Source of the DNA: the human T2T-CHM13v2.0 reference genome, Homo sapiens | Length of the DNA stretch: 64,000 nt | Reading direction: 5' to 3' (one strand) | Assembly: GCF_009914755.1 (NCBI RefSeq) | Contig: NC_060931.1 | Shown here: positions 27,501-33,500 of the stretch, piece after piece | Position numbering within the stretch: position 1 is the stretch's first letter | Layout of the letters: the number at the start of each line of letters is the position of its first letter | Notes under the pieces: generated by a model | What the model was told of the DNA's origin: nothing | What the model saw: only the letters and a program-made list of their open reading frames with translations | Databases searched by the model: none | Program-made: the position numbers and the translations under genes

Positions 27501-30500
27501 ATGGAGACAGGCAGCATCACCATTATTAAAGGGTTTGGGATCAGGGAGTATTTAGACTGTCTCAGGCTGTTATTGCAGGTTGATATCACTATGCTTGGAT
27601 AAGATTCCTCACCTTTCCATCGAGCAGATAGGTGGCAGACTGCATTACATTCATCAAAACTCCCACTGGACTCCAGCTAAATTTATATCTCAATGGATTG
27701 TTTGAATGTTCAGGGGCTGGAAGCCCACCACAGTAGGAAATATATGATTCAATCTATAAATTAAAGAATCAATAAATAAGGAAGAATTCACAACTTAGAG
27801 AATGTCTAAGTAATTAATTGAAGACAATGATATGAATGGAGTAAACTTGCTACAGTTTTTCATTCTTAAAGTTACTAAGGCATTCAAAAATACATCTTCA
27901 AAGCATGTACCATTTGATTAAATAACAGTTAATTTTATATATATGTTTTTTTAAAAAAACTGTAAAAATAGTGACTAACATTTTGTTCAGTTAAAAATCC
28001 AACTCTTAGTTCAATTCTGCTTAGTCAGTTCCTACTAACTTTTGTATTCAAATTATATATTTACATATATATAATTTTAATACATATATATACACACACA
28101 TTCAAAAAACCTAAAACAATCTGAATCATCCCATTTACACCCAATAGTACCTCGCCAAAGGTACTATTTCATAAAAGATATTTCATATCAACAGATTGCT
28201 GATACCCAAAGATTCTTCTTACTTTTAAAAGTCAAATCTTATTACAGAATCTTCAAGGTAGTCTAAAATTTGTATTAAGCCAAAATTTTATAGTAGCATC
28301 TGTTTCTCCAAAAATTGGTTGCTACCTAAGACTTGGACATTGTTTTCCTGTATGGATATTTTTGCAGTTATAAGATATTATTTAAAATTTCTGGGAGGCT
28401 GAGGGGGGCAGATGACCTGAGGTCAGGAGTTTGAGACTGGCCTGACCAACATGGAGAAACCCCATCTCTACTAAAAATACAAAATTAGCCGGGCATGGTG
28501 GTGCGTGCCTGTAATCCCAGCTACTTGGGAGGCTGAAGCAGGAGTATTACTTGAACCTGGGAGATGGAGGTTGCAGTGAGCCGAGATTGTGCCGTTGCAC
28601 TCCAGCCTGGGCAACAAGAGCAAAACTCAGTCTCAAAAAAAAAAAATCTTTAACTTTGATTAAAGGTGTTGCTATATTATAACTCATACTTTGATTCTGT
28701 ACACAAGAATTTAGACATTTTAATGTTGCCTTTGGGTACAAATTGGGCTCACCGTGGCTCCCACTTCCTTGGCTTTATCTATTGTTTCCATTGCTAACAT
28801 GTGATCCAGACCAGGGTCCAATCCCAATTCACCAATGATTGTGATGCCAGCATCTTCCACACTGCAGCAGGTGGAAAGAGGAAAAAGGAAAACTTGGATA
28901 TAAAATAAAAACAATGCCATGGATCCACTCAGTTTGTTTAAAATGATTAAAACTTACCTCTTTTCCAATTCTTTTAGTGCTGGTGTGATGTAGCTTGCAG
29001 TGACCATGTTAACTTTGTTTGTGATGCAGGCCTTGGCCACAAGAGGGTGCAATACATAAGGCAACAAGCTTGAAAACAGGAAGAAACTAATCAGAAACTC
29101 CCTTTTTCAACTCTACTTTCTAAGGTACTTGAACTGTATTAAAGCTGCATCTTAAGGTACTGTTCTGATTAAATTATTCTCTCAGAAAAGGGAACACTTA
29201 TACACTGTTGGTGGGAATGTAAATTAGTTCAGCTGCTACAGAGGATAGTTCAGAGATTTCTCAAAGAGCTAAAGGTTGAACTATCATTCGACTTAGCAAT
29301 CGCATTACTGGTTATCTATCCAAAGGAAAATAGATTATTCTACCAAAAAGACACAGGCACTCACATATTCATCACAGCACTATTCGCAATAACAAAGACA
29401 TGGAATCAATTGACATGCCCATCAATAGTGGGATTGGGGCCAGGTGCTGTGCCTCATGCCTGTAATCCCAGAACTTTGGGAGGCCAAAGACAGGTGAGTC
29501 GCTTGGGCCCAGGAGTCGAGACCAGCTTGGACAAGATGGTGAAACATCATCTCTACAACAAATACAAAAATTGGCCCAGCATGTTGGCGCATGCCTGTAG
29601 TCCCAGCTACTCCAGAGACTGAAGTGGGAGGATCACTTGAACTCAGGAGGTCAAGGCTGCAGTGAGTTGAGATCACAGCACTGCACACTAGCCTGGGCAA
29701 TAGAGTGAGACCCTGTCTCAATAAAACAAAACAAAATGAAACAAAAATAAAAAAACAAAAACCGTGAATTGGATTAAAAAATGTAGTACATATACACCAT
29801 TGAATACTACATAGCCATAAAAAAGAATGAAATAGTGTTCTTTGCAGCAACATGGATGCAACTGGAAACTATTATCTTATGCGACCTAACACAGAAACAG
29901 AAAACCAAATACTGCAGGCTCTCACTTACAAGTAAGTGGGAGCTGAACACTGGGTACACATGGAATTAAAGATGGAAACAATAGACACTGAGGACTACAA
30001 GAGGGAAGAGATAAGAAGTGGAGCAGGGGCTGAAAAACAACCTACTGGGTACTATGCTTGCTACTTGGTGACAGATTCATTGATACTCCAGACCTCAGAA
30101 TCACACAATATACCTTTGTAATAAATGTGCACATGTAACCCCTGATTGTAAAATAAAAGTTGAAAGTAAAATAAATAAATATTCCCTTGGAAAGACGTGA
30201 TCAATGACTCCCTGTGGGCCACAGAATAAATTCACCCTGTTATCACATCTAAATAGCAATACTCTATTCTATTTACCTGTTGAGGAATAAAGGCCTGAGA
30301 AGTGGTTTTATTGTTTATTTTGTTTTTTTAATGAACTAGAGAAAATCTGAAGTATGCAGAGTTAATTTGACAAGTACAATGATGTAGTATGATATTGTTT
30401 ATGTTGGTTTTTATTTTTTTGGTGGTACTGCAGACAGCTTTACCAAATAGTCAGTAAAAAACAACTTAAATATTGTCATGTAATTGACAGGGTATTTTAT

Positions 30501-33500
30501 TATTCCTACAATAGACTATGGATATACTCATTTATATAACACTCATATTTATGAAAATTTGATATCTTGTGATTATGCAGACCCAGCACCAAATTATAAT
30601 CCCAAAGCCAAAATTGTTGAAAACCCAATCAAAGTTGAGCTTTGAGTACAGCATCATCTGTTGTTCACCCTGTGGATTTTTAGCCATTCTGATACCTTTA
30701 CACCGATCAACACCATGAAAGCCTATCTCCTCCTTGGGCCCTTCTTGGAGTCTACTCAATAATGTAATACATGGGCCATCTTGACCTAGTTTGACACTTC
30801 CTGATAGCCATTTGGAAGATGTGAAGGTAAAAAGAACAGCAGCCCTATTTTAGTGGAAAGCCCACGACAGAAAACCCCAATCCAAATTATACCTGCCTCT
30901 TTAAGAAATTTCTAAAGAGTTATTTTCCTCCACAAAGCTTTCCCAGATTTCCCCAAAGCCAGATATCCTTCCTCTGCATGCATCCAGTTATATATTTATA
31001 ACATTTAATGGAATTTGCTCCATTCATCCCTATATTTCTACAGCTAATGTATTACATTATTGAGTAGACTCCAGGAAGGGTCCACGGAGGAGACAGGCTT
31101 TAACGGTGTTGATCAGTGTAAATGCTATCAAAATGGCTAAAAATCCACATGGTGAACAATGGATGATGCTGTACTCAAAGCTCAACTTTGATTCGGTTTT
31201 CAACAAATTTGGCTGTGGTATAATAATTTGGCTCTGGGACTGCATAATCAAAAGAAATTAAATTTTCATAAATATGAGTGTTATAAAAATGAGCATATCC
31301 ATATTCTATTCTAGGAATAATAAAATACTCTGTTAATTACATGATAATATTTAATTTGTTTTTTAATGCCTATTTGGTAAAGCTGTCTACAGTACCAACA
31401 AAAAAAAATAAAAACCAACAGAAACAATATCACACTATATCATTGTACTTGTCAAATTCATTCTGCATAGTTCAGATTTTCTCTACTTCATAAAAAAAAA
31501 AAACAATAAAACCACTTTTCAGGCATTTATTCCTCCTCAGGTCAACAGAATAGAGTATTGCTATTTAAATTTATTATAATGCAGAATAAAATTGTGTATG
31601 TCTTTTATCAGTATCAAAAGCTCCTGGTCTCTGTGTTTTTGTTTCCTTAAACCAAAAATAATTACTGCTAACAAATTTAGTAGACTTTTGGAAACCACTG
31701 AGCAAAATACTCGCAAAACTATTAGAACCAAATATTAATAGAAAATGTGCAATGTCATCATCTTAAAGGTTAAACAGAAATTTTTAAATCACATTCTCCA
31801 TATTAAACTTGCTCAATCAAAATTTTACTAAGATCTAATAATATTTTAAAACTTTGGCCTTATAATAGGCTGAGAAGTAGAATGATAGGACTTTGCCTGT
31901 GGTACTTTTTTAGACGAAGGGATTAGAGTTCATAATTCATCTCGAATATGATACAGTAAGCACTCAATGGGACATACTCTTAAATTATTTAAGTTGACTC
32001 CAACCCAATTACTCCAAAAGGTCGAAAATGTCACTTGTGAAAAATACACACAAAATACATGTGGAATTTTCAAAGAAACTTGAAATCAATTACTACTTTG
32101 TATTAAATTAAAAACTAAATTTGAAAAATTATAACTATGAGAATTGTACATATTACTAAACATTTTTTGTGAAACATATTCTTTACTCATTTTTTTGTAG
32201 TCCCTATCACTGTGGTTATATCAAAACATTCTTTCCCCAACTTAAAAAATAAAACAATTAGCCAGGCATGGTGGCTTATGCCTGTAATCCTGACACTTTG
32301 AGAGGCTGAGGCAAGTAGATTGCTTGAGGAGTTCAAGACCAGCCTGAGCAACATGGTGATATCCCATTGCTACTAAAAATACAAACTTTAGCTAGGCATA
32401 GTGGCAAGTGCCTGTAGTCCCAGCTACTTGGGTGGTTGAGGTGGGAGGATCACTTGAGTCTGGGAGGTGAAGGTTGCAGTGAGCCAAGATTGTGCCACTG
32501 CATTCCAGCCTGGGTGACAAAATGAGACTGTCTCAAAAAAAAGAAAAAAAAAATTTAAGGAATGTTATAGGATAACATTGTTTAATGGCATTACCATTAT
32601 TCAGCATAGAAAATACACCAAATGAGAAAACATTAAATATAAAACAGTTTTTGCTAATGCTAAATCCTATTGAAGGCCACTAGTTTGCTAAATTTTAAAA
32701 TTTGGCCATATTAAGAGATTGATGTTTTTGTCCATTATCTTGTCACATTTTATTTCAGATTCTGTTCCAAATGGATTTTATCATGTTATTTTACTTTTAA
32801 TTAAAAATGATATATTTAGATACCTCTGTGTGGCAAAATAAATTATTGTTCTACTCAGAAGGCTAGATCATTCTATTTTGAATCAGAATTTCTTTTCATG
32901 GTAATATCAGAGAGGTTCAGTTGGTCATTAGTCAATTTTTTCTAAATAAAAATTAACGCTCATAACATTTATATAAATTGAGTAACATTTTAAGTGCATA
33001 AAGTTAGCCTGTATTTAAAGATATCAAGAGAAATGTAAAAATGCCAGCCTACAGAACTACCTTTCATTATATGTTTTCCAAGCCTGCTTTTTTTTTTTTA
33101 AAGCAGAACATCACAGAACTTCCTCCAAAGATACAATTTGAATCTGATCTGTGAAAGTGACTAGGTAATCACTATGAGGGAACAGATAACTTTCTTCTTC
33201 TCATCTTGGGAAAATTCTAGGAATGAATGACTATTTTCATCACTTTGACATTTCAAAACCAAATTTATTTATTTATTTATTTATTACTTTTATTTTAGGT
33301 TCAGGGGTACATGTGCAGGTTTGTTATACAGGTAAATTGTATGTTATGGGGGTATGGTGTACAGATTATTTCATTATCTAGGTAATAAGCATAGTACCCA
33401 ATGGGTAGTTTTTCGATCCTCACCCTCCTCCCACCTTTTACCCTTAAGCAGGCCCTGATGTCTGTTGTTCCTTTCTTTGTGTACATATGTACTCAAATAT

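What the first reader, a model, noticed from the sequence alone, without database searches (positions are those of the whole stretch)
30250..31567. Large non-Alu inverted repeat (~520-bp arms, ~274-bp loop) in AASS intron 15
Seen: 30250-30772 is the reverse complement of 31047-31567 at about 90% identity (roughly 48 substitutions and a few indels by hand). I do not recognise the arm as Alu, L1, L2, LTR or a known MITE, and I see no TSD. Established: intramolecular duplexes of this length are substrates for ADAR1 hyper-editing and Dicer, and can be seen by dsRNA sensors. Inference: every AASS pre-mRNA can fold an exceptionally long stem here, potentially an editing or endo-siRNA element or a splicing-influencing structure, and the DNA may be prone to cruciforms and spacer inversion.
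Basis: partly seen in the sequence, partly recalled or inferred. Interest (0 to 1): 0.8.

Follow-up and report, generated by a model that had tools for sequence, protein, structure and literature searches.

The report
Single-locus long inverted repeat, AASS intron
Intron 15 of the human AASS gene holds a real 525-base inverted repeat found nowhere else in the genome, most likely an old local inverted duplication that makes a long imperfect RNA hairpin with no demonstrated function.

Summary
Arms 30247-30772 and 31047-31570 are reverse complements at 90.6% identity (472 matches, 49 mismatches, 8 gap positions) around a 274-bp spacer.

The arms are not copies of a multi-copy transposon. Left arm, right arm, spacer and right flank each match only this locus in the window's own 3.1-Gb assembly. 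The same search recovered 76-81% identical copies of the adjacent L1 3' end. There were no Pfam matches above cut-off (0 of 25 ORFs), no Rfam matches in the repeat and no third copy in the window.

The AASS-sense RNA is predicted to fold into one hairpin: 477 inter-arm pairs, 91% paired, longest perfect helix 32 bp, -762 kcal/mol.

Best reading: a local inverted duplication, very roughly 35-45 Myr old (K2P 0.105), now a neutral intronic long inverted repeat and a plausible nuclear ADAR substrate. It falls below the >96% pairing class linked to MDA5. Its spacer and divergence argue against cruciform extrusion or spacer inversion.

A 9-bp direct repeat flanks the unit (P about 0.01-0.03), so insertion as one unit stays a live rival. 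Editing, small RNAs and orthologues could not be tested. Interest is low to moderate.

The parts
30247..30772 (.). Left arm of the inverted repeat (526 bp). It forms the 3' arm of the hairpin in the AASS (minus-strand) pre-mRNA.
   Evidence: The only other match in the assembly is the right arm.
30773..31046 (.). Spacer or loop, 274 bp, single copy, with no internal symmetry.
   Evidence: matches itself only; spacer halves no better than shuffles, P = 0.83.
31047..31570 (.). Right arm of the inverted repeat (524 bp). It forms the 5' arm of the hairpin in the AASS pre-mRNA.
   Evidence: The only other match in the assembly is the left arm.
30222..30230 (+). Left copy of a 9-bp direct repeat, a candidate target-site duplication. 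It lies 16 bp outside the left arm.
   Evidence: Empirical chance of a shared 9-mer in such window pairs is 0.8% (8916 pairs), or 2.5% in 1579 AT-rich pairs.
31582..31590 (+). Right copy of the same 9-bp direct repeat, 11 bp outside the right arm.

Best explanation
This is a single-locus long inverted repeat made by a local inverted duplication of about 525 bp of unique intronic DNA. One arm plus the 274-bp spacer is the original sequence. The other arm is an inverted copy laid down beside it, most plausibly by a replication template switch or fold-back repair event. The event is dated very roughly to 35-45 Myr ago in an anthropoid ancestor, and the arms have decayed neutrally since. Today the repeat is transcribed as part of AASS intron 15. 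There the two arms are expected to pair into an imperfect duplex of about 480 bp, which would be a nuclear ADAR substrate discarded with the intron and have no selected function. Shown: the repeat exists, it is unique in the genome, it has no coding or Rfam signal, and the fold is predicted. Inferred: the duplication mechanism, the age, the editing and the neutrality.
For: Uniqueness: left arm (2 candidates, both scored), right arm (2 matches), spacer (1 match) and right flank (2 matches) hit only this locus in the 3.1-Gb assembly. Positive control: the same tool, with a 2366-nt query, gave 5383 first-look candidates, and all 39 non-self scored hits were 76-81% identical copies of the neighbouring L1 3' end. 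No third copy exists in the 64-kb window by blastn with word size 7 or by nhmmer. A 21-mer from the arm terminus with up to 3 mismatches gave 223 non-self hits. I examined 28 of them and none extends beyond the motif. No coding remnant: 0 of 25 ORFs reach a Pfam cut-off. The 105-aa ORF has no paralogue and scores as non-protein-like in the Atlas. Differences between the arms are evenly spread, with identity of 0.82-0.92 per 50 columns and a longest identical run of 32, which random placement gives or exceeds in 77% of simulations. This looks like simple decay since one event. K2P distance is 0.105. Fold: -761.7 kcal/mol against a mean of -284.5 for 10 shuffles; 477 inter-arm pairs (326 AU, 141 GC, 10 GU). 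This is the only substantial inverted pair in the 5290-bp intron.
Against: A 9-bp direct repeat brackets the whole unit. Its empirical chance is 0.8-2.5%. That is what insertion of the whole 1351-bp unit would leave, not a local duplication of one arm. No microhomology and no flanking repeat longer than 5-6 bp marks either single arm as the inserted copy. I could not show which arm is ancestral, and no orthologous sequence was available. The search is proven only down to about 76% identity, so old repeats inside the duplicated DNA, or an old family homogenised by gene conversion, would be missed. The differences between arms are transversion-rich (21 transitions to 30 transversions), against 202:162 in an L1 control whose seven comparisons all share the window copy. 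I have no explanation for this. Neutrality is assumed, not tested.
Confidence: 0.55

Rival explanations
1. The whole unit of about 1351 bp (30231-31581) was inserted at once into a target that was duplicated by 9 bp. It would be a non-autonomous cut-and-paste element with about 525-bp terminal inverted repeats (the 8-11 bp target duplications of hAT, Merlin or Mutator-like elements, recalled from memory), or a templated fold-back insertion whose return point lay 9 bp upstream.
For: A 9-bp direct repeat lies at 30222-30230 and 31582-31590, with an empirical chance of 0.008 window-wide and 0.025 for AT-rich pairs. The architecture of long terminal inverted repeats around a short unique core is that of foldback or MULE-type elements (recalled). 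The estimated age overlaps the last wave of DNA transposon activity in anthropoids (recalled: Pace and Feschotte 2007, not read here).
Against: The direct repeats do not abut the arms. They are separated from them by 16 and 11 bp that are not complementary. No other copy of arm or spacer exists in the assembly, nor among 28 of 223 motif hits examined. No transposase remnant was found. The window for the direct-repeat search was chosen after seeing the repeat.
Confidence: 0.17
2. The arms descend from an old transposon family, either two insertions or one long-TIR element, whose other copies are now below the detection limit. Gene conversion between the closely spaced arms would have kept them similar until about 40 Myr ago.
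For: The own-genome search is validated only to about 76% identity. Eutherian-wide families have pairwise identities below that (recalled). Inverted arms 274 bp apart can convert.
Against: There are no conversion tracts, since differences are evenly spread. Two arms with identical end points to within 2-3 bp would not be expected from independent insertions. No terminal target duplication abuts the arms. The model needs an extra process, long-term homogenisation followed by release.
Confidence: 0.1
3. The hairpin is a selected RNA element. It could be a hyper-edited ADAR target, a precursor of endogenous siRNAs, or a structure that loops out 1.3 kb of intron 15 and alters its splicing or retention.
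For: The predicted duplex is very stable and is the only large one in the intron. It exceeds the medians that dsRNAscan reports for edited dsRNAs, which are 297 bp, 31 contiguous bp, -410 kcal/mol and 84.7% paired (PMC11838218, Table 1 seen in passages). AASS gives a long-lived intron-retained nuclear RNA in hiPS cells (PMC13561874, passages). AASS is listed among differentially edited genes in granulosa cells (PMC11163819, Table 2 passage; site not given).
Against: There is no evidence of constraint. The arms show 9.4% mismatch, only 10 G-U pairs, and more transversions than transitions, which is the opposite of structure-preserving change. No Rfam family matches. The retained AASS intron is not named in what I could read, and that paper describes long-lived retained introns as GC-rich, whereas GC here is 0.25-0.41. 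No paper in 3 searches links AASS to such a hairpin.
Confidence: 0.08

Closest known systems
Long inverted repeats (LIRs) as catalogued by LIRBase / Inverted Repeats Finder
   Same: Arms over 400 nt, at least 80% matching and a loop far below 100 kb. It meets the published criteria (PMC8728187, passages) and would encode a long hairpin RNA.
   Different: LIRBase's arm cut-off was set to remove Alu and MITE pairs, and I did not see what its entries are made of. Here the arms are single-copy sequence, and no small RNAs are known from it.
Inverted Alu pairs and other editing-enriched intronic dsRNAs (ADAR substrates)
   Same: An intramolecular, imperfect, intronic duplex hundreds of bp long. Its pairing (91%) and longest helix (32 bp) match or exceed the medians for edited dsRNAs (PMC11838218).
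   Different: It is not made of repeats. dsRNAscan finds non-repetitive dsRNAs at only about 2 per Mb, with median lengths of 75-144 bp. The loop is 274 nt against a median of about 2 kb. Editing at this locus was not tested.
Fold-back or template-switch inverted duplications (FoSTeS/MMBIR-type events; fold-back inverted duplications with a single-copy spacer)
   Same: Two inverted copies separated by a short single-copy spacer, with no transposon hallmarks.
   Different: Described cases are either tens of bp (short-range template switches; PMC7954356, listing only) or kb to Mb pathogenic rearrangements. This one is 525 bp and ancient, and no junction microhomology is recognisable.
Foldback or long-TIR DNA transposons (for example MULE-type non-autonomous elements)
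   Same: Long terminal inverted repeats around a short core, and an 8-9 bp flanking direct repeat.
   Different: It is single copy, the direct repeat does not abut the repeats, and there is no transposase or related autonomous element.

Membership tests
Long inverted repeat (LIRBase definition) | Both arms over 400 nt, at least 80% matches, at most 10% indels, loop at most 100 kb | tested here: met
   Arms are 526 and 524 nt, identity is 90.6%, 8 gap positions in 529 columns, loop 274 nt. Criteria taken from PMC8728187 passages.
Pair of copies of a multi-copy transposon (Alu, L1, LTR, MITE) | Each arm matches many other genomic copies of one family | tested here: not met
   Arms match only each other in the 3.1-Gb assembly. 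The control L1 fragment gave 5383 candidates. The limit is that sensitivity is shown only to about 76% identity.
Cut-and-paste DNA transposon with long TIRs | Target-site duplication directly abutting the terminal inverted repeats | tested here: not met
   A 9-bp direct repeat exists but lies 16 and 11 bp outside the arms. The intervening bases are not complementary.
Cut-and-paste DNA transposon with long TIRs | Other family members, or an autonomous partner encoding a transposase | tested here: not met
   No other copy was found. 0 of 25 ORFs reach a Pfam cut-off. Other species could not be searched.
LTR pair (solo LTRs in opposite orientation) | TG...CA ends with a 4-6 bp target duplication around each LTR, and a multi-copy family | tested here: not met
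   TG and CA can be read near the arm ends. However, the repeats flanking single arms are only chance-level 5-mers that do not abut the arm ends, and there are no other copies.
ADAR-edited dsRNA / editing-enriched region | Long intramolecular duplex in a transcribed RNA | tested here: met
   477 inter-arm pairs, longest helix 32 bp, MFE -761.7 kcal/mol on the AASS-sense strand. This is a prediction only.
ADAR-edited dsRNA / editing-enriched region | Clusters of A-to-G mismatches on both arms in RNA-seq | not testable with these tools
   No RNA-seq or editing database is available. PMC11163819 lists AASS as differentially edited but gives no site.
Putative MDA5-class endogenous dsRNA | Over 300 bp and over 96% paired (PMC11838218; PMC7006430) | tested here: not met
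   The length criterion is met (about 525 bp), but pairing is 91% and arm identity 90.6%. The element is also intronic.
Hairpin-RNA / endo-siRNA locus | 21-23 nt small RNAs mapping to both arms | not testable with these tools
   No small-RNA data are available.
Known structured RNA family (Rfam, including miRNA precursors) | Match to a covariance model | tested here: not met
   9 matches at E up to 1 in 29000-33000, all inside the two flanking Alus and none in 30230-31587.

The most novel reading that the evidence does not exclude
This would be a primate-specific hairpin born from single-copy DNA that acts in cis on AASS. As the one large duplex of intron 15, it would be hyper-edited and would help hold AASS transcripts in the nucleus, or slow removal of this intron. 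That would tie it to the long-lived intron-retained AASS RNA seen in human pluripotent cells. Alternatively it would feed Dicer to give endogenous siRNAs. A second unexcluded novelty is that the unit is the lone relic of an otherwise unknown long-TIR mobile element with a 9-bp target duplication.
Probability: 0.06. Interest if true: 0.6.

Novelty: new member of a known kind. Interest (0 to 1): 0.25.

Why it matters
If the reading is right, this is an ordinary relic. It is one of the less common long intronic hairpins built from single-copy DNA rather than from Alu or L1. Its practical value is as a clean test substrate. Both arms map uniquely, so editing, duplex-mapping or small-RNA reads can be assigned without the multi-mapping problems that affect Alu pairs. 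It may also be a dated example of a mid-sized inverted duplication, between the tens-of-bp template switches and the kb-to-Mb fold-back rearrangements described so far. It does not look like a risk for innate-immune sensing or for genome instability.

Tried and rejected
I fell back on single-sequence DNA queries and one 21-mer pattern.
(2) The pattern search gave 225 hits against 76 for the reversed control. I do not count the excess as evidence, because the reversed pattern contains a CpG, which is depleted in human DNA. Of the 223 non-self hits, I examined 28 and none extends.
(3) LTR-pair, L1-mediated (TPRT) and piggyBac/Tc1 readings are rejected. There is no poly(A) at either end, no L1 endonuclease-type target, no abutting target duplication, and no other copies.
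(4) Coding remnant is rejected.
(5) A larger, older palindrome with decayed outer parts, or a symmetric spacer, is rejected.
(6) I looked for a MIR element in the window to use as a low-identity control, using a recalled 17-mer core motif. There were 0 matches, so the sensitivity floor below about 76% identity stays untested.
(8) Three searches for AASS with inverted repeat, dsRNA or hairpin and one for AASS with A-to-I editing found no description of this element. AASS does not occur in the main text of PMC11838218 or PMC13251931.
(9) Which AASS intron is retained in PMC13561874 is not stated in the passages I read or in the one supplementary file held.
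Full report
**Observation.** The repeat finder returns four collinear inverted segments between 30230 and 31587. A gapped local alignment joins them into one pair, 30247-30772 against 31570-31047. That alignment has 472 identities, 49 mismatches and 8 gap positions, giving 90.6% identity. A MAFFT alignment of slightly longer stretches gives 51 mismatches and 8 gap columns in 529 columns. The spacer is 30773-31046, 274 bp. Homology ends sharply. The 200 bp outside each arm align no better than shuffled sequence (score 8 against a shuffle mean of 10.3), and the spacer has no internal symmetry. 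By the hub's exon table the element lies in AASS intron 15 (29069-34358). It is 1178 nt from the exon 16 side and 2788 nt from the exon 15 side.

**What the arms are not.** The window's own 3.1-Gb assembly could be searched.
- The left arm and the right arm each matched only themselves and each other.
- The spacer matched only itself.
- The right flank plus the last 121 nt of the right arm matched only itself and the left arm.

As a positive control, a 2366-nt query spanning the region produced 5383 first-look candidates. All 39 non-self scored hits were 76-81% identical copies of query positions 1-319, an L1 3' end that sits just left of the repeat at window 29871 to about 30190. The search therefore sees family members at 76% identity or more. 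Below that it is untested.

More sensitive queries, a DNA alignment and a sequence-only model, are not accepted for this genome. A 21-mer from the arm terminus with up to 3 mismatches gave 223 non-self hits. I examined 28 of them with nhmmer and blastn, and none extends beyond the motif. Inside the 64-kb window there is no third copy.

There is no sign of a coding remnant. Four ORFs and 21 further ORFs gave no Pfam match at or above a curated cut-off; the best was DUF1516 at 17.2 bits against a cut-off of 30.5. The longest ORF is 105 aa and lies on the AASS-sense strand at 30535-30849. It has no paralogue and does not look protein-like to the Atlas (recognition 1018, best score 0.77). Rfam gives nine weak matches in 29000-33000, all within the two flanking same-orientation Alus and none in the repeat.

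**Origin.** The two arms differ by a K2P distance of 0.105. The differences are spread evenly: 0.82-0.92 identity per 50 columns, and a longest identical run of 32, which random placement equals or exceeds in 77% of simulations. That pattern fits a single duplication event followed by undisturbed decay. With recalled primate neutral rates, about 5% per lineage places the event very roughly 35-45 Myr ago. This date is an inference, not a measurement.

Arm and spacer are otherwise single-copy, so the simplest model is a local inverted duplication. One arm plus the spacer would be native, and the other arm an inverted copy added by a template switch or fold-back repair. I could not find junction microhomology, or a flanking repeat longer than 5-6 bp, that marks either arm as the new one.

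One observation points the other way. A 9-bp direct repeat lies at 30222-30230 and 31582-31590 and brackets the whole unit. Window pairs at the same spacing share a 9-mer in 0.8% of 8916 cases, or in 2.5% of 1579 AT-rich cases. This could be a target-site duplication from insertion of the whole 1351-bp unit. Several points weigh against that reading:
- The repeat lies 16 and 11 bp outside the arms.
- The intervening bases are not complementary.
- The search window was chosen after the fact.
- No other copy of such an element exists in the assembly.

I give the insertion model about 0.17 and the local duplication about 0.55.

The transition-to-transversion ratio of the arm differences is 21:30. 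It is lower than the 202:162 in seven L1 comparisons, which all share the window copy and so are not independent. I have no explanation, and the contrast is weak.

**Consequences for RNA.** The AASS-sense strand of 30247-31570 is predicted to fold into one hairpin of -761.7 kcal/mol, against a mean of -284.5 for 10 mononucleotide shuffles. It has 477 inter-arm pairs (326 A-U, 141 G-C, 10 G-U), 91% of arm nucleotides paired, and a longest uninterrupted helix of 32 bp. The 1358-nt fold gives the same picture. It is the only large inverted pair in the intron. The next is a 58-nt, 74% L1 fragment pair.

These values exceed the medians that dsRNAscan reports for edited human dsRNAs: 297 bp, 31 contiguous bp, -410 kcal/mol, 84.7% paired and a 2-kb loop. 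That study finds non-repetitive dsRNAs to be sparse, at about 2 per Mb with median lengths of 75-144 bp (PMC11838218, passages including Table 1). ADAR editing of this intron is therefore a reasonable prediction.

The hairpin does not reach the >300 bp and >96% paired class that dsRNAscan (2,018 cases) and Barak et al. (PMC7006430, passages) treat as MDA5-type. Being intronic, it should stay in the nucleus. Nothing suggests selection for pairing. There are only 10 wobble pairs, and transversions outnumber transitions.

**Consequences for DNA.** In yeast, lowering inverted-Alu homology from 100% to 94% and 86% cut rearrangement rates about 15- and 58-fold. Widening the spacer from 12 to 200 bp cut them about 20-fold, and widening it from 12 to 100 bp cut recombination about 300-fold (PMC10164571, passages). 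Here identity is 90.6%, the spacer is 274 bp, and no identical run exceeds 32 bp. That run length is far below the minimal identical tract that I recall homologous recombination in mammalian cells to need; I did not check that figure here. The same paper shows that such repeats can still interact in long single-stranded DNA, so the risk is low rather than nil.

**Literature.** Three searches combining AASS with inverted repeat, dsRNA or hairpin and one combining it with A-to-I editing found no description of this element. Two leads remain open. AASS is among genes with consistent differential editing in granulosa cells, but the site is not given (PMC11163819, Table 2 passage). AASS also yields a long-lived intron-retained nuclear RNA in hiPS cells (PMC13561874, passages and one supplementary file). 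The intron is not named in what I could read, and that paper describes such introns as GC-rich, unlike this one (GC 0.25-0.41). LIRBase reports 4.59 million inverted repeats with arms over 400 nt in 208 vertebrate genomes (PMC8728187, passages), so the class is common.

**Verdict.** The element is best filed as a new member of a known kind: a long inverted repeat or intronic hairpin formed by an old inverted duplication of single-copy DNA. It is very probably neutral. Its main use is as a uniquely mappable dsRNA substrate. Interest is 0.25.

Noticed in passing
window 29871-30190: An L1 3' end on the + strand with an A-rich tail lies directly left of the repeat, about 55 bp from the left arm. 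The genome search gave 5383 first-look candidates, and the 39 scored copies were 76-81% identical. I named it as L1 by recalling the L1 3' end sequence, not from a repeat library.
   Followed up: partly
window 30084-30141 and 33304-33361: A short inverted pair (58 nt, 74% complementary) formed by two L1 3'-end fragments in opposite orientation within the same intron.
   Followed up: no
window 30535-30849 (-): A 105-aa stop-to-stop ORF on the AASS-sense strand covers the inner left arm and 77 nt of the spacer. The equivalent frame in the right arm is broken. It has no Pfam match, no paralogue and low Atlas recognition, so it is most likely a chance ORF.
   Followed up: yes
window 30247-30772 vs 31047-31570: Differences between the arms are transversion-rich (21 transitions to 30 transversions). 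L1 copies compared with the window's L1 fragment give 202:162 (non-independent comparisons). This is unexplained, and the sample is small.
   Followed up: partly
window 30215-30221 and 30772-30778: A 7-mer direct repeat (TGGGCCA), seen by eye, brackets the left arm plus 25 bp of its flank. Shared 7-mers occur in about 12% of control window pairs (distribution), so this is at chance level.
   Followed up: partly
window 29311-29868 and 32235-32564: Two Alu elements in the same (+) orientation flank the repeat. Being parallel, they cannot pair with each other, which leaves the repeat as the main duplex of intron 15.
   Followed up: partly
AASS gene (literature): AASS is one of the imaged long-lived intron-retained nuclear RNAs in hiPS cells (PMC13561874), and it is listed as differentially edited in PCOS granulosa cells (PMC11163819). 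Neither source, as far as I could read it, gives the intron or the site.
   Followed up: partly
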